A stretch of 64,000 bases of DNA from a virus, in the IMG/VR virus record IMGVR_UViG_3300021141_000001; one strand, 5' to 3'. The notes under the pieces were generated by a model. The model made no database searches, was not told the origin of the DNA, and was given only the letters and a program-made list of their open reading frames with translations. Positions 1,169-18,738 of this stretch are shown here, piece by piece; within the stretch, counting starts at the first letter, position 1, and each line of letters begins with the position of its first letter. A program made the position numbers and the translations under genes.

Positions 1169-1711
1169 ATGAGATATTTAAAAACTTATGAATCATTTTC
1201 AACAAACGAAGAGTTCTTAGGTGGACTTTGGAACAAAATTAGTTCAGCATTCGCTAATTGGAAAAATGAAAAATTGAAAAATGCTGGTGAAAAACTAGCT
1301 AAGGCAATTGAAGAAAAGAAAGACCAACCAGAAATGGCTAAGGCTCTTGCTGACTTAAAATCTGCTTATGCTTCTTTACCACAAGAAGATAAAGCTAAAA
1401 TTGAATCACTTAAAGATGAGAAAAATATTCCTGTTCATACTGAAGCTTCTACAGAAGAAGAAATAATGGCTGAATCACTTCTTCTTGAAGAAGAAGGATT
1501 AGCTATGAAAATTATTGGTTGGTTAGGTTTATCTGCTAGTGCTATTTCTTTTGTAACTTTAATCGTTACTGTTGTTCAAATAGCAATCGCTGGTTCTGGT
1601 TTCCCACTTACATTATTTGGATTATCATTAGGTACTTTAGGTGCTATCTGTATGGTCGCTGTGATGGTATTTGGTATCGGTGGTAGTATGGCAATGGAAT
1701 ATGCTGACTAA
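1169..1711 (+). CDS. Putative virion-internal membrane protein with capsid-targeting-like N-terminus
   Basis: MRYLKTYESFSTNEE start; two C-terminal hydrophobic helices. Confidence 0.6.
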   Translation: MRYLKTYESFSTNEEFLGGLWNKISSAFANWKNEKLKNAGEKLAKAIEEKKDQPEMAKALADLKSAYASLPQEDKAKIESLKDEKNIPVHTEASTEEEIMAESLLLEEEGLAMKIIGWLGLSASAISFVTLIVTVVQIAIAGSGFPLTLFGLSLGTLGAICMVAVMVFGIGGSMAMEYAD

Positions 1712-1747
1712 TTAAAATATTAAACAATATATAAAAAGGAGATAATA

Positions 1748-1978
1748 TTAATTATCTCCTTTTTTTTCTGCCAAGATTTTTTCAACTTCAGCGTCAATTC
1801 CACTAACTCTTAAAGTCCACTTAGTTAAGAAAAAGTTTCCAGCTAATACAGCTAATTGAAATGGAAAACTAGTTAAGATTTGTTTTTGACCTCCTAAGAA
1901 GTATAAAGCGAATACAAACATAGCTAAAGAAACTGTGTGATGAATTGCTTTGTAGTTTTTACAGTATAATGTTTTCAT
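1748..1978 (-). CDS. Small membrane protein (probably early)
   Basis: Two hydrophobic segments; host-type promoter upstream. Confidence 0.65.
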   Translation of the reverse strand: MKTLYCKNYKAIHHTVSLAMFVFALYFLGGQKQILTSFPFQLAVLAGNFFLTKWTLRVSGIDAEVEKILAEKKGDN

Positions 1979-2004
1979 GTTGTAGTGATTTTTTAATTGT
2001 TTAA

Positions 2005-2035
2005 CAAAGATAAGCTATTTTATCTAAATACCAAA
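2005..2035 (-). promoter_or_regulatory. Bacteroidota sigmaA-type promoter
   Basis: TTTG-N19-TATCTTTG on minus strand. Confidence 0.7.
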
Positions 2036-2093
2036 AATAAAATAACTTTTTTCTAAAAAATATCTATAACTCATGTAAAAATAAATAGAATAG

Positions 2094-3620
2094 ATGTTAG
2101 TTGAAACACAATACTTAACAAATAGTAAGAAATTAGTAGTTAGTTACGTTGATAAAACCGGTGATATAAAGCTTAAATATTATAATTGGGAAGATCCAAT
2201 GAAATATGTTGCTTGTGAAGATACAGATGTACAAAAACATCCTGAGTTTAGATCATGGGATGGTAAATCTGTAAAACAAATAGAAGTAAATCACCCTGAT
2301 AGATATGCTATCTATGAGTTCTTGGATGGTTTACCTGAATCAGAAAAAAATGAAATATTTGAATTTAATCTTCCTAAGATTTATTTTATAGATATTGAAA
2401 CCGAAATCGTTGATGGTTTCCCGGAAGCGGCTGATGTTAAAGACCAAGATGGTAATGTAACAAAAGAAGGTGCTTCTACTCAAGTTCTTTCAATTTCAAT
2501 TGTATATGATGATAAAATCATTCTTTTAGGTCTTAAAGAAATGTCAGAAGAAGTTCAAGAAAGAATTACAAATAACACTAATAAATACTTTGAGAAGTTT
2601 GGTACTGAATATAAATTCAAATACATTAAATATGATGATGAGTTTGATATGCTTTATGCTTTCTTCTATAAGATGATTCCTAAGATGCCAATTCTAACTG
2701 GATGGAACTTTCTTCAGTATGACTGGTTATATTTAGTGAATCGTTCTAGAAAGATTTCTAAATGGGTAAATGGTAAAGAATATAAAATTGATCCAGCTGT
2801 TTCATCTTTGACAAAAAGAATGAATAAGATTTGGTCTACTGAATTTGAAGTACCTGCTCATCGAATGATTTTTGATTACATGCAACTTTATGAAATATGT
2901 GATACTTCTATTAAAGTAAAAGAGTCATCATCATTAGATTTCGTTGCTAATAAATTAGTTGGTGTTGAAAAGATTAAATATAATGGTTCATTACAAAAAC
3001 TTTATGAAGATGATTTTGAAACATTTATGTATTATAACGCAGTTGATAGTGTTCTAGTACAAAAGATTCATGAAGCTCGTAACTATATCTCAATTATTTA
3101 TGCGATTTCATCATTGGCTCAAATTAGAATCATCGATGTTGTTTCTCAAATGAATAATGCTCTAGGTTCTTTGGCTATTACAGAAGGCGTTTTAAGAAAT
3201 AGATTCCGTAAGATGGACAACATTGTACTTTTCCGAGATGAAAGAGGTGATGCTGATTCTACAATTGCTGGTGGTTGGGTAAAAGATCCTGTGGTCGGTA
3301 TGAATCAGTGGTGTGTTACTTATGACTTTGCCTCACTTTATCCAACAACTCAAAGACAATTCTTTATTGCTCCTGAAACATTTATTGGTCTTCAAGATGA
3401 AAAAGATAAATCTAAGTGTACTAACGGTAGACCTATCGATCCTGATAAACACGTTCTTTGTATCAATGGTGTTGTATTTGAAAAAAGAATATCTCCAACT
3501 TTAAATATGCTTGAAGACGTTTATGCTGATAGAAAGAAAGCTAAGAAAGTCATGATGGATAAAAAAGAAGATTTGAAGAAGATTTTAGACGAAATCAAAC
3601 AGTTAGAGGCGGAAATTTAA
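2094..3620 (+). CDS. Family B DNA polymerase, N-terminal subunit of a split gp43-like enzyme
   Basis: ExoI DIETE, ExoII GWNFLQYD, ExoIII YNAVD, motif A DFASLYP; ends in first fingers helix, motifs B and C absent. Confidence 0.88.
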   Translation: MLVETQYLTNSKKLVVSYVDKTGDIKLKYYNWEDPMKYVACEDTDVQKHPEFRSWDGKSVKQIEVNHPDRYAIYEFLDGLPESEKNEIFEFNLPKIYFIDIETEIVDGFPEAADVKDQDGNVTKEGASTQVLSISIVYDDKIILLGLKEMSEEVQERITNNTNKYFEKFGTEYKFKYIKYDDEFDMLYAFFYKMIPKMPILTGWNFLQYDWLYLVNRSRKISKWVNGKEYKIDPAVSSLTKRMNKIWSTEFEVPAHRMIFDYMQLYEICDTSIKVKESSSLDFVANKLVGVEKIKYNGSLQKLYEDDFETFMYYNAVDSVLVQKIHEARNYISIIYAISSLAQIRIIDVVSQMNNALGSLAITEGVLRNRFRKMDNIVLFRDERGDADSTIAGGWVKDPVVGMNQWCVTYDFASLYPTTQRQFFIAPETFIGLQDEKDKSKCTNGRPIDPDKHVLCINGVVFEKRISPTLNMLEDVYADRKKAKKVMMDKKEDLKKILDEIKQLEAEI

Positions 3621-3669
3621 CAAAATAGATTTTACTTTTTAATATATACAGAAAAATAAAATATTTTTT

Positions 3670-6060
3670 ATGGAAATTAAAAAGTTTTCTGATTTTGAAT
3701 ATCTTAACGAAGAAGAGAATCTTTGGGGTAATATAAAATACGGTCTTAGTAAACTAGGTAGATATAAAGCTAATGGTAAAATCTTTGGTAAAGGCGAAAC
3801 TGATAAAAAAGCCGCTGAAGAAATTGGTAGAATTATGGGTAATACTACTAATGCTGCTCTTAGTGCTGTTTATGATAAAGTAAAAGAAAAATCACCTGAG
3901 TGGCCCAATGATAAAAGTAGAGTTGCTTTTTTAAGAGGTGTTTTAATGTATGGTCAATTCTATGACTCTATTGTTGCTGCCGCTGAAAAAAGTCCAGAGG
4001 AAGAAGGATATTTAGATCCAGAAGTTGCTAATAAACTTATTGAGAATACAAGAAAGGTTGTTAAAAAAGCATTAGATACTGATTTAGCGGCGGTTTATTC
4101 TGTGATGGATTCTAATAATTCTATTGATTTAAACAAAGAAGAATTACTTTTTGAAGAAATATTTAATTTAGAAAATGAGCCTATTAATGAGGAGTTCTTA
4201 AAGAAGTTAGGTCAGTTAAAAGACAAAGCTATGGATGCTCTTTTTGGTAAAAAAGATGAAGATTCAGAAGCTAGAAAAGCTGGAAACAGACAATCTGCTA
4301 AGTTACAAGGTGCTGGAGACGACAACGTTGTTGATAGTGAGAGAATGAAAACTCTTAAATCTAATAAACTTCCTTTAATTTTAGCTGGAGTTGGTGGTGC
4401 TTTAGGTGCTATTGGTTGGATTGCTCAAACTCAATGGTTTAAAGACTTAATTACTACAACAATTAAACACCCTGCTCAGTTTGGTGAGAAAACATTTACA
4501 ACTACTGTTGAGAATAATCTTAAAGTAGATCCAAAAGGATGGTCATATACTATTCAAAATAATGGATTTATGGATGCTACTGGTAAATCATTGAATTTCA
4601 ATCAACCAGTTGGTAACTTAAAAGACGCTTTCAGTTTCTATGGTGGTGGTGATCAGGCAAAAGGTATTGAAGCTATGTCGAGCTTCTTAGGAGGTGGCGG
4701 AAAAGCTTCTTCTGTTGCTGATATTACTAGTCAATTAGCAAATCCAGCAAATAAAACAGTTGGTGATATTTTTAATCATCTTGAAGGAACTTGGGGAGAT
4801 AACGTTTTAATGAACCAAAATGGTGGTGCTAAAAGTTTTATTGCTAAACAAGTTTATACTCAAACTAAAAAAGTTTTAATTAGAGCTGGTTTTACAACAA
4901 CTACAACATCTGCTGCTGGTAGTTATTTAATTTCAATAGCTCCTGTTCTTTCAGCTTTAGGTATTGCTCTTATTGGTGCCGGTGCTGTTGTTAAATTATT
5001 AAGAGAAAAAGGACAAAGACAATCAAGAGCTAAAACTCTTAACGATTTATTACAATCATTAGTTTTAGTTAAAATAACAGATAAAAATAAATCTAAAGGT
5101 GAAGAAGAAGGAACTGGAAAAGATGAAGAAATAAATACTACTGATGTTCCAACTGAAAAGTCAATTTATCCTTTAATGATTAAAAACCTTACTCAATTAA
5201 AAAGTTTAATTATTACTTCTGCTGGTGTTAAACTAGAAGGTGAAGGTGGTGATAAAGGTGCTGGTAATATTAAAATTGGTAAAGAGTATTACTTTACAAA
5301 TAAAAAAGGAGATAAGAAAAAAGTTAAAGTTATTTCATTAACACACGATACAACAGTTGGTAAAGATAGAACTTGGTTAACTAAAGATGATGTGAAACAA
5401 ACAACTTTATCTAAAGGAAAAGCATCTGTTATCTTCAAAGATAAAAAAGGTGAATATACTGCTAGTTCTCCAGAAATGGCTGTTAATTTTGACCAATTAA
5501 GTCCAGTTAAAGAGTCAATCTCAATTAGTAAGTTTGATGATATCGTATTAGAAGATAAAAAAATTGGTACTCAAAGAAATGTTGAAGTAACTAAAGGTGA
5601 AGATTATTTAACACAAGCAGTTTCTAATATTAGAAAATCTCTTAAAAGTATTGTTGATGAGAAAGATAAAGGAGTTGGAATAACTGAAGATTTTATACAA
5701 GCTATACTAGACAAGAAAATGGATTCTGAAACTAAAGCTCCAGTTAAAGAATTATACGCTGAAGTTTATGATTATTTATATGGTAAAAAGGCTAGCACTT
5801 TGGGAGATTTTGCTCCTTTGTATAAAGAAAGTGTTGATGTTATATCTAACAAAGGTAAACGTCAAGTAGTAGCTGAAAAAATGGCGAGATTTACAAAAAG
5901 ATCTTTACAATTTGAAGGTGAAGGATTCTATGGTGGAATGGGTGAGTTTGGTGCTGACTTACAAGATTTTAATAAGTCATTCAAACAAATTATGAGTTAC
6001 TTCAAAGAAAAGAAAGACGAAGTTAAAGAAAGTAAAATTTACAAATTCAAAGATATGTAA
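3670..6060 (+). CDS. Large putative virion-internal protein with hydrophobic helices
   Basis: MEIKKFSDFEYLNEE start, TAATATATA at 3640, two Gly/Ala-rich TM-like segments. Confidence 0.6.
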   Translation: MEIKKFSDFEYLNEEENLWGNIKYGLSKLGRYKANGKIFGKGETDKKAAEEIGRIMGNTTNAALSAVYDKVKEKSPEWPNDKSRVAFLRGVLMYGQFYDSIVAAAEKSPEEEGYLDPEVANKLIENTRKVVKKALDTDLAAVYSVMDSNNSIDLNKEELLFEEIFNLENEPINEEFLKKLGQLKDKAMDALFGKKDEDSEARKAGNRQSAKLQGAGDDNVVDSERMKTLKSNKLPLILAGVGGALGAIGWIAQTQWFKDLITTTIKHPAQFGEKTFTTTVENNLKVDPKGWSYTIQNNGFMDATGKSLNFNQPVGNLKDAFSFYGGGDQAKGIEAMSSFLGGGGKASSVADITSQLANPANKTVGDIFNHLEGTWGDNVLMNQNGGAKSFIAKQVYTQTKKVLIRAGFTTTTTSAAGSYLISIAPVLSALGIALIGAGAVVKLLREKGQRQSRAKTLNDLLQSLVLVKITDKNKSKGEEEGTGKDEEINTTDVPTEKSIYPLMIKNLTQLKSLIITSAGVKLEGEGGDKGAGNIKIGKEYYFTNKKGDKKKVKVISLTHDTTVGKDRTWLTKDDVKQTTLSKGKASVIFKDKKGEYTASSPEMAVNFDQLSPVKESISISKFDDIVLEDKKIGTQRNVEVTKGEDYLTQAVSNIRKSLKSIVDEKDKGVGITEDFIQAILDKKMDSETKAPVKELYAEVYDYLYGKKASTLGDFAPLYKESVDVISNKGKRQVVAEKMARFTKRSLQFEGEGFYGGMGEFGADLQDFNKSFKQIMSYFKEKKDEVKESKIYKFKDM

Positions 6061-15232: not shown

Positions 15233-15248
15233 TCACTAAATAATATTG

Positions 15249-15279
15249 AAAAGGGATTGTGTGAACAATCCCTTTTTTT
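15249..15279 (+). terminator. Intrinsic terminator after nrdA
   Basis: AAAAGGGATTGT-GTGA-ACAATCCCTTTT plus T run. Confidence 0.8.
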
Positions 15280-15308
15280 ATTATATAAATAAAAAGAAAA
15301 TTATTTTT

Positions 15309-15953
15309 ATGAATAAAATTGAGATAGAAGAAAAATTAGATAGAGGTTGGGTAATTGAGTTGATATCTAATGGATATACAACTTATGATATAGTTAATGA
15401 ATATGAATTAAATGAAGATACTATTTTAGAATGTACAGATCTTTTAGATAAAGAAGTACTTATACAAGGATTGAGTTTTTCTGAAGATTTTATAAACAAG
15501 GCACTAGAATTGGAATATTTTAACAATGAAGATATCTATGAATTGAATATGACTACCTATTCTAATTTATCTGATGAATTTATTACTGAATATAAAGAAA
15601 ATATAAATTGGGATAGAATGATACTTTATATCTCTACTCAATCAGATTCATTTGATAACCATACTAAAGTTATTGAAGATAAAAATCTTTGGTCTATTAT
15701 TAGTGCCAATGATTTATCAATTGATTTTATTAGACAATGGAAAGACAAATTAGATTGGTCTTACTTATCAATGGTTAAGTCATTTACTGATGAAGAAAAG
15801 TTAGAATTTGATAACTATATTATGACACCTGTTCAACAAGAACTACCTGGAGACTTAATAAATACTGATGATTTGAAAGTTACTGATAAAATGTCTGATG
15901 AAGAATTAGAAAACTTAATTGAGGAAATTTCAAAACATTTTGGAAAGTATTAG
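15309..15953 (+). CDS. Tryptophan-repeat-like protein
   Basis: Repeats LSxxFIxxxKxxI/LxW; ATG at 15309 preferred over track TTG, which overlaps the terminator. Confidence 0.6.
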   Translation: MNKIEIEEKLDRGWVIELISNGYTTYDIVNEYELNEDTILECTDLLDKEVLIQGLSFSEDFINKALELEYFNNEDIYELNMTTYSNLSDEFITEYKENINWDRMILYISTQSDSFDNHTKVIEDKNLWSIISANDLSIDFIRQWKDKLDWSYLSMVKSFTDEEKLEFDNYIMTPVQQELPGDLINTDDLKVTDKMSDEELENLIEEISKHFGKY

Positions 15954-15970
15954 TATAACTACTATCTTTG
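15939..15970 (+). promoter_or_regulatory. Bacteroidota sigmaA-type promoter upstream of ncRNA/Ro60 locus
   Basis: TTTG-N20-TATCTTTG. Confidence 0.65.
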
Positions 15971-16108
15971 TAGAACTATAAACAATCCACCTTTGAAAAA
16001 AACGAAATTTTAGAGGTTGATATATACTAAACAAATTAAAAAAAACTTTTTTGAAGAAAATTAAAACTTTTTGATTTTCTGATATAAAAGAAAGACAATT
16101 AAAATACT

Positions 16109-16171
16109 CCAGTAGTGAATTAGAGAGTTACTTCGGTTCAGAAAAAAACACTCTTTGATAGCTTACTCTGG
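16109..16171 (+). ncRNA. Candidate Y-like RNA 1 (63 nt)
   Basis: CCAG/CTGG, bulged T, AGTGA/TTACT, 3-nt 3' bulge AGC, 10-bp ATTAGAGAGT/ACTCTTTGAT stem, loop starts TACTTCG; upstream of Ro60. Confidence 0.65.
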
Positions 16172-16186
16172 TCAACATAATTAAAA

Positions 16187-16448
16187 CGCAAGCATAGCGA
16201 TAGTTTGAGATACTTCGATAAATATCAATTAAACTATGACAGCCAAAGTGCCTAGCAACAGCGAAGCTACCTTACAAGAACATTAAGATTCTTGACCAAG
16301 GTGAAAAAGTTTGGAAAGTACCACATTAAGGACTAAGGAATTCAGAAACTTCCTTTAAATAAAGAACTGAGTGATATGGTCACTACAACTATAGGCAAAG
16401 TTTCGGGAGAATTCTTTGTAACGCTTAGGCTAAATTTACTTGTTTGCG
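16187..16448 (+). ncRNA. Candidate Y-like RNA 2 (262 nt)
   Basis: CGCAAGCA/TGTTTGCG, bulged T, AGCGA/TTACT, 3-nt bulge AAT, TAGTTTGAG/CTTAGGCTA stem, TACTTCG, multi-hairpin interior. Confidence 0.65.
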
Positions 16449-16458
16449 ATAATTATAT

Positions 16459-16495
16459 AAGACCAGATTAACAGAAATGTTATCTGGTCTTTTTT
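16459..16495 (+). terminator. Intrinsic terminator between ncRNAs and Ro60
   Basis: GACCAGA-T-TAACA-GAAA-TGTTA-TCTGGTC followed by T6. Confidence 0.8.
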
Positions 16496-16528
16496 ATTTA
16501 AAATAAATTAAAAATTAAAATATAAATT

Positions 16529-17980
16529 ATGTCAAAATTTAACACAACAATGCCAAAGGCAAAGACTTTAACTGAAAACCTAGCAGGTGGACAAGCTTAT
16601 TCTGAATCAAACGAGTTAGCACTTGTATCACTATTATTAACATCATTTGTTAATGATCAGTTCTATAGAAATGCTCAAACGTCATTAGATGAATTGAGAA
16701 AGCTTTCTGAGAAAGTAAAGGATAAAGAATTTGTTGCTAAGGCGGCTATCTTTGCTCGTGACCGTTTCGGTATGAGAAGTATTACTCATGCTCTTGCTGG
16801 TGAATTAACTTCACAACTATCGGGTGCCGAGTGGGGTAAAAACTTCTATGACAAAGTAGTTGTTCGTGTTGATGATATGACAGAAATCATGTCATACTAC
16901 TTGGCTTACAAGACATCTAAAGATAGTCCTAAGTTTCCAAATGCTTTGAAGAAAGGATTCGCTAAAGCTTTTGATAAGTTTGATGGTTACCAATTGGCTA
17001 AGTACAAAGGTGATAACAAAGAAGTAAAACTTGTTGACTTGGTTAACATTGTTCACCCAATTCCAACTGTTAGAAATAAAGCGGCTCTTGAGTCACTTGT
17101 TAAAGGTGAGTTGAAAAACACTCAAACTTGGGAGTCTATGTTATCTCAAGCTGGTCAAGTAGCTGAGTCTGAAGAAGACTTGACTAAATTGAAAGCTGAT
17201 GCTTGGTCAGAATTGATTTCTACTAAAAAGATTGGTTACTTTGCGCTTCTTAGAAACTTGAGAAATATCATTACTCAATCTCCAACTGCTGTTAGTTCAG
17301 CTTGTGAAATGTTAGTTGATGAAAGATTGATTAAGAGCTCAAGAGTTCTTCCATTCCGTTTCTCAACTGCTTATGAAGAAATCAGTAAGATTGGTTCTTC
17401 TAAAGACGTAAGAGACGTTCTTATGGCAATTGGTCAAGCACTTGATATTTCTGTTGCTAACGTACCAGTATTTGATGGTGAGACACTTGTTGTTATGGAC
17501 GTTTCTGGTTCTATGTCGGGTAAGCCATCTGAGATTGCTTCATTGTTTGGTGCTATCTTGGCTAAAGTTAATAACTGTGATGTTATGACTTTCTCTACTG
17601 ATGCTAAGTATATGTCTTACAATCCAATGGATTCTGTAATGACTATTAGAAATAGTTTCAGATTCTCAGGTGGTGGTACCAATTTCAAAGCCATCTTTGA
17701 TAGAGCTAACAAGAAGTATGACAGAGTTATTATCTTGTCAGACATGCAAGGTTGGATGGGTTATACAACTCCATCTGCTGAGTTCTCTAAGTACAAGAGT
17801 AAGTTTGGTGCTAACCCATACGTTTACTCTTGGGATCTTGCTGGAATGGGTACTTTACAGTTCCCTGAACAAAATGTCTTCGCTTTAGCTGGCTTCAGCG
17901 ATAAAGTTTTTGACATCATGAAAATGATGGAGTTAGACAAGAAAGCTCTTTACAATGAGATTAAGGCTATCAAGCTTTAA
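16529..17980 (+). CDS. rsr: Ro60/Rsr RNA-binding protein (TROVE + vWA)
   Basis: NLAGG start, YQLAKY, TWE, ALLRNLRN, RVLPFRF, vWA MIDAS DVSGSM, GGT, ILSDMQ. Confidence 0.92.
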   Translation: MSKFNTTMPKAKTLTENLAGGQAYSESNELALVSLLLTSFVNDQFYRNAQTSLDELRKLSEKVKDKEFVAKAAIFARDRFGMRSITHALAGELTSQLSGAEWGKNFYDKVVVRVDDMTEIMSYYLAYKTSKDSPKFPNALKKGFAKAFDKFDGYQLAKYKGDNKEVKLVDLVNIVHPIPTVRNKAALESLVKGELKNTQTWESMLSQAGQVAESEEDLTKLKADAWSELISTKKIGYFALLRNLRNIITQSPTAVSSACEMLVDERLIKSSRVLPFRFSTAYEEISKIGSSKDVRDVLMAIGQALDISVANVPVFDGETLVVMDVSGSMSGKPSEIASLFGAILAKVNNCDVMTFSTDAKYMSYNPMDSVMTIRNSFRFSGGGTNFKAIFDRANKKYDRVIILSDMQGWMGYTTPSAEFSKYKSKFGANPYVYSWDLAGMGTLQFPEQNVFALAGFSDKVFDIMKMMELDKKALYNEIKAIKL

Positions 17981-17988
17981 TTAAACTA

Positions 17989-18014
17989 AAAACCCACTCA
18001 TTTGAGTGGGTTTT
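17989..18014. terminator. Bidirectional terminator, CCCAC family
   Basis: Identical 26-mer to 8691-8716. Confidence 0.8.
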
Positions 18015-18015
18015 T

Positions 18016-18738
18016 TTATTCGTCTCTAAAAGTATAAGCGTCTATAGAATTAGCAATTTCATCCTCATCTATAGTGAATTGTTTAGTCTTCATATTATAT
18101 GAAGCCACTCCATATAAATCATCACCTAGAAATACACCAACTTCAATATATTCCTCATCATCAGTTGTGTCCATATATCTATCAAAGTCTATATTATCTT
18201 CTTTATAGATTTGTCTTAATCTTTTTAGACCATCTAAGTATTCTTTATCTTGAGATGTTTTGTAAATATCAAATGTATCTTTTAGTTCTTTTGTACTTAT
18301 CTCATCACTTATAAATGATATAGAAAAAGTGTGAATAACTCTTTCGTGTCCTGTTGTTTTATCTAACCAATACTCATTTTTTTCAAGTTTTAATTCTTCC
18401 GCTTCAACTCTATCTATCATTTCATCTACAGATATCTTAATAGTATTTAGATTATCAAGAACTTTATTAAAATCATTTTTACCTGGTATCAAACTGTATT
18501 GAATTTGACAAGTATAAAGTAATCTATATTTTTCATTATCATCAACTTCAGTATTAACGGCGTGACCCTTTGTATCAATTAGATATCTATAGTTACTAAC
18601 TCTAGCAAATTGTTTAACATCAAATAAACTATCATTAAATATATCAGTTGAAATAGCCTTAGATGTTAAGAAGTCCGAATATTGTTGAGATGTTCCAAAA
18701 GACTCTTTAATAAAGTCGTTATACTTTTTAAGTTTCAT
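18016..18738 (-). CDS. Hypothetical protein with capsid-targeting-like N-terminus
   Basis: MKLKKYNDFIKES; TAATATATA 4 nt before ATG. Confidence 0.7.
   Translation of the reverse strand: MKLKKYNDFIKESFGTSQQYSDFLTSKAISTDIFNDSLFDVKQFARVSNYRYLIDTKGHAVNTEVDDNEKYRLLYTCQIQYSLIPGKNDFNKVLDNLNTIKISVDEMIDRVEAEELKLEKNEYWLDKTTGHERVIHTFSISFISDEISTKELKDTFDIYKTSQDKEYLDGLKRLRQIYKEDNIDFDRYMDTTDDEEYIEVGVFLGDDLYGVASYNMKTKQFTIDEDEIANSIDAYTFRDE

What the first reader, a model, noticed from the sequence alone, without database searches (positions are those of the whole stretch)
15939..17980. Phage Ro60 with two related, non-YrlA Y-like RNAs: candidate new ribonucleoprotein system
Seen: the 575-bp gap before the TROVE-vWA gene holds two elements with the same terminal architecture. 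Each has a closing stem, one bulged U on the 5' strand, AGYGA paired to UUACU, a 3-nt bulge on the 3' strand, a 9-10 bp upper stem, then UACUUCG, with AAC just before the returning strand. RNA1 is 16109-16171 and RNA2 is 16187-16448. Stem sequences differ (CCAG/CTGG vs CGCAAGCA/TGTTTGCG; ATTAGAGAGT/ACTCTTTGAT vs TAGTTTGAG/CTTAGGCTA) while pairing is kept, which resembles covariation. Known: Ro60 binds Y RNAs through a 5'/3' helix with a single-nucleotide bulge and an opposite 3-nt bulge, and bacterial Y RNA genes usually lie next to rsr. Neither RNA has the GUCCGA/UUGAC core or a canonical tRNA-like T-arm of YrlA. Inference: a distinct Y RNA class with a shared Ro-binding module and exchangeable effector domains (21-nt loop vs about 210 nt), used by the phage to redirect RNA decay/repair or to counter RNA-damaging defences.
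Basis: partly seen in the sequence, partly recalled or inferred. Interest (0 to 1): 0.92.

Follow-up and report, generated by a model that had tools for sequence, protein, structure and literature searches.

The report
Phage Ro60 with two Y RNAs
Just upstream of its Ro60 gene, a huge freshwater phage encodes two conserved folded RNAs that share one docking stem; they are very probably the phage's own Y RNAs, one a bare stem-loop and one carrying a 210-base folded insert of unknown role in place of the usual tRNA look-alike.

Summary
RNA1 (16109-16171) and RNA2 (16187/8-16447/8) have the described architecture. Both are conserved upstream of Ro60 in about 40 related huge-phage contigs, with many compensatory base changes (13 of 19 and 12 of 22 pairs). 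The gene is a true Ro60: TROVE plus vWA, and a full-length homolog of Thermus phage phiLo Ro60.

No Rfam family matches either RNA. They are still not a separate class. The same stem plus UACUUCG handle carries T-arm/D-arm cargo, which scores as weak YrlA, in more distant relatives and in Bacillus phage G, whose Y RNA is published. RNA1 is a cargo-less Y RNA. RNA2 is the same handle with a new non-tRNA cargo.

Contigs from four metatranscriptomes cover the locus. Two carry head-to-tail joints at sensible RNA2 ends (16447 to 16188, and 16496 to 16182). These may reflect circular RNA or a library artefact.

Ro60 binding and function are inferred, not shown. This scan had already found the same handle-and-cargo family on other DNA.

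Verdict: new variant of a known kind, moderate interest.

The parts
16109..16171 (+). RNA1: a cargo-less handle hairpin (short Y RNA). It has a lower stem, bulged U16113, AGUGA/UUACU with a central 1x1 position, a 3-nt bulge, a 10-bp upper stem and a 21-nt loop that begins with UACUUCG and ends with an A-rich AAC.
   Evidence: Model R1 scores 75 bits here and has no other hit in the window.
16129..16135 (+). UACUUCG motif of RNA1 (T24, A25, C26, T28, C29 and G30 of the aligned stretch are invariant).
16172..16186 (+). Spacer between RNA1 and RNA2. It holds a -10-like CATAAT at 16176-81, and relatives carry TATAAT or TATATA-like words at the same place.
   Evidence: This is sequence reading only; promoter activity was not shown.
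16188..16447 (+). RNA2: the same handle (5' strand 16188-16209, UACUUCG 16211-17, 3' strand 16424-16447) around a cargo of about 206 nt (16218-16423).
   Evidence: A head-to-tail joint 16447->16188 occurs in a metatranscriptome contig.
16218..16423 (+). RNA2 cargo, a multi-helix domain. Covarying helices are 16395-16400/16414-16419 (capped by UUC-GGGA-GAA), hairpin 16370-72/16382-84, UACC/GGUG at 16268-71/16299-302, and a GNNU/ANNC hairpin with a CGACAGC-type loop near 16248-16267. No T-arm or D-arm is present.
   Evidence: The interior is only partly solved.
16461..16495 (+). Intrinsic terminator (GACCAGAU...AUCUGGUC followed by U6) between RNA2 and the Ro60 start codon. It is conserved in all related loci.
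16167..16183 (+). 5' half of an alternative stalk that flanks RNA2. UCUGGUC (16167-73, also the 3' strand of RNA1) and AUAAUUA (16177-83) can pair with 16450-67.
16450..16467 (+). 3' half of the alternative stalk. It comprises UAAUUAU (16450-56) and GACCAGA (16461-67, also the 5' arm of the terminator).
16529..17980 (+). Ro60 ortholog of 483 aa, with a TROVE domain, a vWA domain and the MIDAS motif DVSGS.
   Evidence: Pfam TROVE 63.3 bits against a cut-off of 23. phrog_850, E 7e-43. Full-length match to phiLo Ro60 9KOP/9L5Y, E 1e-21.
17988..18015 (.). Bidirectional terminator hairpin that closes the unit.

Best explanation
RNA1 and RNA2 are the phage's own Y RNAs, the non-coding partners of the Ro60 ring protein encoded just downstream. 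They belong to a handle-and-cargo family that is widespread beside Ro60 genes of phages.

Shown here: both are conserved structured RNAs on the Ro60 strand. They share a handle made of a basal stem, a bulged U, an AG-N-GA/UU-N-CU helix, a 3-nt bulge, an upper stem and then UACUUCG...AAC. The handle is kept while the interior is swapped among relatives. Sequences of this locus appear in RNA libraries.

Inferred: Ro60 docks on the handle. RNA1 acts as a minimal gate or competitor Y RNA, like YrlB or Yrn2. RNA2's roughly 206-nt cargo tethers Ro60 to another factor, by analogy with Y RNA tethering Ro60 to PNPase. The RNAs and Ro60 are one transcription unit in which the internal terminator lets RNA outnumber protein, and Ro60 mRNA arises by read-through, possibly tuned by an alternative stalk that competes with the terminator.

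Unknown: what the particle does for the phage (RNA quality control, repair or counter-defence).
For: - Covariation.
- The two-RNA arrangement upstream of Ro60 is kept in all but two of 25 loci, and again in 19 of 25 further loci at Ro identity 49-98%.
- Model R1 finds RNA1-type hairpins directly upstream of Ro60 in loci with 50-60% Ro identity and in crAss-like phage cr111_1 with 32% identity.
- Reverse test: of 85 exact handle-pattern sites in IMG/VR, 45 have a Ro60 homolog in the same stored stretch, nearly all on the same strand, most of them 100-750 nt downstream.
- In relatives and in Bacillus phage G the handle carries T-arm plus D-arm cargo that scores as weak YrlA.
- The protein is a full-length Ro60. 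K141 and K142, the RNA-backbone contacts in phiLo Ro60, are invariant in this clade.
- Precedents: two Y RNAs upstream of rsr processed from one precursor in M. smegmatis, and one long-hairpin Y RNA per species. phiLo Ro60 binds two upstream Yrl RNAs in vitro.
- RNA contigs from four studies cover 16039-17993. One bridges the terminator into the ORF (16335-16678), and joints fall at sensible RNA2 ends.
Against: - No binding, transcript-end or functional data exist for this phage.
- The published Ro-contact motifs (GGUCCGA, GNCGAA/CGAA) are absent as such. AG[C/U]GA and UUCG[A] only partly resemble them.
- Rfam Y_RNA and YrlA give nothing in the window even at E up to 10.
- Only 2 of the 4 RNA-contact residues reported for phiLo are conserved; R137 is P and R178 is I.
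- The RNA evidence is assembled contigs, some from relatives, in libraries that may contain DNA.
- Some strong handle RNAs lie on contigs with no detectable TROVE gene, although these are mostly fragments.
Confidence: 0.8

Rival explanations
1. The whole 16109-16495 stretch is only a cis-acting leader, an attenuator or RNA switch that controls Ro60 transcription, and not a pair of trans-acting RNAs.
For: - A conserved intrinsic terminator lies 33 nt before the ATG, and no conserved promoter lies between them.
- The 3' strand of RNA1 plus the spacer can pair with the 5' arm of the terminator plus its flank (7 + 7 bp). In the loci where these sequences vary, a locus's own partner ranks 1-4 of 31.
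- RNA contigs run through the terminator into the ORF.
Against: - The handle recurs in arrays of up to five or more. It also lies downstream of Ro60 (L055:2939) or kilobases away, and carries tRNA-like cargo. All of this is typical of stand-alone RNAs.
- RNA2's ends show up as joints, as expected of a discrete molecule.
- A switch and a trans-acting RNA are not exclusive, and both may hold.
Confidence: 0.1
2. The RNAs are real but serve a partner other than Ro60, such as an RNA ligase, a nuclease or a tRNA enzyme. In this reading, proximity to Ro60 reflects a shared RNA-repair neighbourhood.
For: - Some strong R1 hits lie on contigs where no TROVE gene was found.
- The canonical Ro-binding sequence is missing.
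Against: - Those contigs are estimated 4-67% complete.
- The tight, same-strand, immediately upstream position is kept from 98% down to 32% Ro identity.
- No RNA ligase, RtcB or PNPase gene was found in the window, in the 33 ORFs of 131 aa or more that were scanned against Pfam or PHROGs.
Confidence: 0.07
3. The resemblance between the two elements is chance or a recent duplication without function.
For: None beyond the AT-rich composition.
Against: Compensatory changes occur at 25 pairs across more than 30 orthologs, and none of 500 shuffles reaches the observed values.
Confidence: 0.01

Closest known systems
YrlA / YrlB of Salmonella and Mycobacterium smegmatis (Chen et al. 2014, PMC4201824; Rfam RF02553)
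   Same: - Two non-coding RNAs on the rsr strand next to the gene. In M. smegmatis both lie upstream and come from one precursor.
- The 5' and 3' ends pair into a stem with an internal loop or bulge.
[quoted passage not shown]
- Relatives of this locus carry the YrlA-type T-arm/D-arm inside the same handle.
   Different: - The window's RNAs have no tRNA-like domain and no GNCGAAN0-1G motif.
- They do not match RF02553 at any threshold.
- RNA2's cargo is about 206 nt of unrelated structure.
Bacillus phage G Y-like RNA (listed as known in PMC12135203, citing Chen 2014)
   Same: It has the same handle architecture with GUUACUUCG at the top of the 5' strand, and it lies upstream of a Ro-like gene. 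Further handle elements with other interiors follow it.
   Different: Phage G's published-type element has T-arm/D-arm cargo (YrlA 36 bits). Its basal motif is AGCGG rather than AGYGA. Its Ro protein is very distant (TROVE 20.9 bits).
Thermus phage phiLo Ro60 with Yrl1/Yrl2 (PMC12135203; PDB 9KOP, 9L5Y)
   Same: Closest solved protein (E 1e-21 over residues 12-476). Two Y-like RNAs lie upstream of the gene, with a stem-bulge-stem design. This is a phage context.
   Different: The phiLo RNAs were picked by a CGAA motif that its binding assays show to matter, and that motif is not conserved here. I found no shared handle in phiLo; its one TTTACTTCGG sits in what reads as a coding stretch.
Deinococcus radiodurans Yrn1/Yrn2 and the Ro60-Y RNA-PNPase (RYPER) machine; metazoan Y RNAs
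   Same: Functional model: Ro60 binds a bulged terminal helix and the distal domain tethers an effector. A single bulged nucleotide on the 5' strand faces a 3-nt bulge on the 3' strand, as in animal Y RNAs (established knowledge; Green 1998 and Stein 2005, from memory).
   Different: No GGUCCGA/UUGAC sequence is present. The cargo is unrelated, and no PNPase link has been shown.

Membership tests
Y RNA (Ro60-bound non-coding RNA, functional class) | Encoded beside rsr/Ro60 on the same strand (bacterial and phage Y RNAs) | tested here: met
Y RNA (Ro60-bound non-coding RNA, functional class) | 5' and 3' ends pair into a helix with a bulge or internal loop | tested here: met
   The bulged U is nearly invariant in RNA1 (at least 90% of 31) and invariant in RNA2, and a 3-nt bulge lies opposite.
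Y RNA (Ro60-bound non-coding RNA, functional class) | Conserved Ro-contact sequence (GGUCCGA in animals; GNCGAAN0-1G / CGAA in bacteria and phiLo) | tested here: not met
   Absent from both RNAs. There is only partial likeness, in AG[C/U]GA[A/U] and UUCG[N].
Y RNA (Ro60-bound non-coding RNA, functional class) | Physically bound and stabilised by Ro60 | not testable with these tools
   Needs EMSA or co-immunoprecipitation.
Y RNA (Ro60-bound non-coding RNA, functional class) | Accumulates as a discrete small RNA | tested here: inconclusive
   Only assembled metatranscriptome contigs were available. Coverage and head-to-tail joints at 16188/16447 and 16182/16496 are suggestive, not proof.
YrlA (Rfam RF02553) | Match to the covariance model at or above 69 bits | tested here: not met
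   No hit in the window at gathering threshold or at E up to 10. Relatives' tRNA-like elements reach 30-41 bits.
YrlA (Rfam RF02553) | tRNA-like domain (T-arm and D-arm) | tested here: not met
   ARAGORN and the Rfam tRNA model find nothing in 15900-16560. The domain is present in L055, L056, L058, L067 and phage G.
YrlB / Yrn2-type second Y RNA (long hairpin, small loop) | Long hairpin with a small loop, encoded with a larger Y RNA next to rsr | tested here: met
   RNA1 is a 19-bp interrupted hairpin with a 21-nt loop. This class has no sequence model, so only the shape could be tested.
Ro60 / Rsr (TROVE + vWA) | TROVE domain above the Pfam cut-off | tested here: met
   63.3 bits against 23.
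Ro60 / Rsr (TROVE + vWA) | C-terminal vWA domain with MIDAS DxSxS | tested here: met
   DVSGS at 324-328 is invariant. The Pfam vWA_Ro60 (24.9 against 27.7) and VWA_CoxE (26.3 against 26.4) scores fall just under their cut-offs.
Ro60 / Rsr (TROVE + vWA) | Full-length similarity to a structurally solved Ro60 | tested here: met
   9KOP/9L5Y, E 1e-21, residues 12-476. There are also hits to 2NVO, 1YVP and 9NEN.

The most novel reading that the evidence does not exclude
RNA2 and its terminator-bearing precursor may be joined end to end in the cell, as covalently closed circles or ligated multimers made by an RNA ligase. In that case a phage Y RNA would itself be a ligase substrate, and the closed form would resist exonucleases. 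The evidence is two metatranscriptome contigs from different studies that read 16447->16188 (the terminal base pair of the RNA2 stem) and 16496->16182 (the end of the terminator U-tract joined to the spacer). The second is a 315-nt cycle identical to the window.
Probability: 0.15. Interest if true: 0.8.

Novelty: new variant of a known kind. Interest (0 to 1): 0.58.

Why it matters
Ro60/Y RNA particles are known from animals, bacteria and a few phages, but only tRNA-like or simple hairpin Y RNAs have been described in bacteria and phages. This locus shows that one conserved docking handle, absent from Rfam, is reused across many large phages with interchangeable interiors. One of those interiors is a conserved domain of about 206 nt that is not tRNA-like and so probably recruits something other than the usual partner.

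The locus offers a compact test bed with one protein and two RNAs. It can be used to ask which handle block Ro60 reads, what the cargo binds, and whether RNA-to-protein ratio is set by an internal terminator and a competing stalk.

It would also let Y RNAs be annotated in thousands of phage contigs that current models miss.

Tried and rejected
- Rfam on the window (gathering threshold) and on 15900-16560 (E up to 10) gave only chance-level hits such as the SdsR terminator part and snoRNAs.
- No whole genome is held for this window.
- The first IMG/VR pattern used the wrong gap (9-11 instead of 7-9) and returned mostly off-family sites.
- Model R1 cannot find RNA2-type elements because of the large insert.
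- RNAalifold on all 32 RNA2 sequences resolves only the handle and two hairpins.
- An ACUU/AAGU pairing between UACUUCG and GAAAAAGU, predicted in one subgroup, is not kept in other subgroups.
- phiLo's TTTACTTCGG reads as coding sequence (VDGFNLYFG) and I take it as chance.
- My automatic extraction of terminator arms failed in about 12 loci, so the own-versus-cross duplex test is informative only for the variable loci.
- The RNA runs showed little or no cover on 15700-16035 and 18052-18200, and contig depths were higher on RNA2 than on the ORF. The tool's own rules say these cannot be used as evidence of transcript limits or levels.
- The Nextera adaptor directly after 16171 in one contig is not evidence of an RNA end.
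- No RNA ligase, RtcB or PNPase gene was found in the 64 kb.
Full report
**What is there.** The 575-bp gap between ORF 15246-15953 and ORF 16529-17980 holds no ORF of 40 aa or more. RNA1 (16109-16171) folds into that structure as its minimum-energy fold (-17.2 kcal/mol, z -2.7). RNA2 has the same terminal module around about 206 nt of interior. An intrinsic terminator (16461-16495, then U6) follows RNA2, 33 nt before the ATG.

**The protein.** The ORF is a true Ro60.
- Pfam TROVE scores 63 bits against a cut-off of 23. The vWA models fall just under their cut-offs.
- PHROG 850 "RNA-binding protein" matches at E 7e-43.
- It matches the solved Thermus phage phiLo Ro60 over its full length (9KOP/9L5Y, E 1e-21), and more weakly D. 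radiodurans Rsr and animal Ro60.
- The MIDAS motif DVSGS is invariant in the clade, as is the LKK motif whose two lysines (K141, K142) contact RNA in phiLo. phiLo R137 and R178 are not conserved here.

**The genome.** The window looks like a large T4-like phage. It carries a split family-B polymerase, DnaB, RNR, RecA-like and PhoH genes, a DNA methylase and many orphan ORFs. Its only close GenBank relative is a 634-kb uncultured phage. Related IMG/VR contigs reach 483 kb. The DNA is found in lake-water metagenomes.

**Conservation.**
- Searching IMG/VR with the protein gave 25 and then 40 loci, with Ro identity 49-98%. A genome scan gave six MAG contigs, mostly Bacteroidota and probably phage, with tRNA arrays.
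- In the first set, 23 of 25 loci show two TACTTCG words 82-92 nt apart upstream of Ro60. One more carries TACATCG in RNA1, and the last is cut off. In the further set, 19 of 25 loci carry two or three such words.
Thirteen of 19 pairs show compensatory change, no shuffle of 500 reaches the observed measures, and slid controls pair at 30-50%.
- On 32 RNA2 orthologs the handle is 89.3% paired, with 12 of 22 pairs compensatory. RNAalifold recovers the same helices independently.
- The central position of AGNGA/UUNCU is really a 1x1 internal loop.
- The outermost RNA2 pair is weakly kept, so the stem effectively starts at G16188-C16447.

**Relation to known Y RNAs.** Rfam has nothing for the window's RNAs. 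But at about 50% Ro identity the same stem plus UACUUCG encloses a canonical T-arm (GGTTCGAATCC) and D-arm (TAGCTCAGYTGGGAGAGC). In one case it encloses a near-complete tRNA that matches model positions 5-66. Those elements score as sub-threshold YrlA, at 30-41 bits and E 6e-8 in the 401-base search.

A covariance model of RNA1 (R1) finds one hit in the 64-kb window. It also finds RNA1-type hairpins directly upstream of Ro60 in the distant loci, and in crAss-like phage cr111_1, where Ro is 32% identical.

In Bacillus phage G, R1's single hit in 497 kb lies roughly 1 kb upstream of the Ro-like ORF. The region holds a YrlA-type element (36 bits) inside the same GUUACUUCG handle, plus at least five further handle elements. 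Phage G's Y-like RNA is cited as known.

The exact handle pattern occurs at 85 sites in IMG/VR. Forty-five have a Ro60 homolog in the same stored stretch, nearly all on the same strand and most 100-750 nt downstream. Many of the rest are cut stretches or arrays.

So the handle is a widespread, unmodelled variant of the Y RNA docking stem. RNA1 is its cargo-less form, comparable to YrlB or Yrn2. RNA2 is the handle with a new cargo.

**Which block Ro60 reads is open.** Two blocks are invariant: basal CAG-U-AG..GA / UU..CU-CUG, and apical G(U/A)UACUUCG ... A-rich AAC. The published GNCGAA/CGAA motif partly resembles both. Infernal places UACUUCG at the position of the YrlA motif, but with poor pairing there.

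**The cargo.** It has several covarying helices, a GGGA-capped hairpin and variable insertions. No tRNA features were found. I did not solve its tertiary fold.

**Expression.** Six metatranscriptomes hold about a quarter of the stretch's words. I laid four of them, all as assembled contigs. Contigs cover 16039-17993. One bridges RNA2, the terminator and the first 150 nt of the ORF, and one 1746-nt contig spans RNA1 to the ORF.

Two joints stand out. The first is an exact-match 345-nt contig that forms a 315-nt cycle joining 16496, the end of the terminator U-tract, to 16182. The second is a contig from a different study that joins 16447 to 16188, the terminal base pair of RNA2. Either real circles or ligation, or reverse-transcriptase template switching at true RNA ends, would explain these. 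A tandem DNA duplication is less likely, because none of about 40 related contigs has one. I could not test DNA runs.

**Regulation (noticed, partly tested).** UCUGGUC (16167-73, the 3' strand of RNA1) and AUAAUUA (16177-83) can pair with UAAUUAU (16450-56) and GACCAGA (16461-67, the 5' arm of the terminator). This extends RNA2's stem outward and excludes both the RNA1 stem and the terminator. In loci where these sequences differ (L018, L046, L017, L014, L060, L063, L037/38/42), a locus's own partner ranks 1-4 of 31. Ro60 has no conserved promoter of its own, so read-through probably makes its mRNA.

**Verdict.** Earlier notes of this scan describe the same family on other DNA.

Noticed in passing
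window 16167-16183 with 16450-16467: An alternative two-helix stalk (7 + 7 bp) flanks RNA2. It competes with the RNA1 basal stem and with the terminator, and the partners co-vary in the loci where they differ. It is a possible read-through switch for Ro60.
   Followed up: partly
L020:1-505; L022-L024 (match 3001-5130); L057 (match 1501-3171): In some relatives the Ro60 gene is interrupted. An HNH-type ORF precedes residue 168 in L020. The match spans 2130 or 1671 nt instead of 1449 in the others, which suggests an intron, an intein or a homing-endonuclease insertion.
   Followed up: no
L182:28-180 and 1500-2180 (Bacillus phage G 405196-407350): Phage G carries one YrlA-type element and at least five further GCGG...ACAGYUACUUC handle elements in a row upstream of its Ro-like ORF.
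   Followed up: partly
L123:7613-7697 (IMG/VR contig of 32.8 kb with terminal repeats): A strong handle RNA (R1, 61.6 bits) lies on a contig where no TROVE gene was found. The contig is estimated 67% complete.
   Followed up: partly
L067-L070 upstream of Ro60: Contigs binned as Saprospiraceae or Sericytochromatia MAGs carry arrays of 8-13 tRNA genes plus handle RNAs just before Ro60. They are probably phage contigs.
   Followed up: no
RNA2 cargo, alignment A3 columns 183-196 (window 16303-16314): A conserved single-stranded block, GAAAAAGUCCG(A/G), in relatives contains GUCCGA, the animal Ro-binding core. The window itself has GUUUGG there.
   Followed up: no
window 17988-18015: A 12-bp bidirectional terminator lies between Ro60 and the convergent gene 18016-18738.
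   Followed up: no
L055:2939-3043: In one relative a further handle element lies about 60 nt downstream of the Ro60 ORF, not upstream.
   Followed up: no
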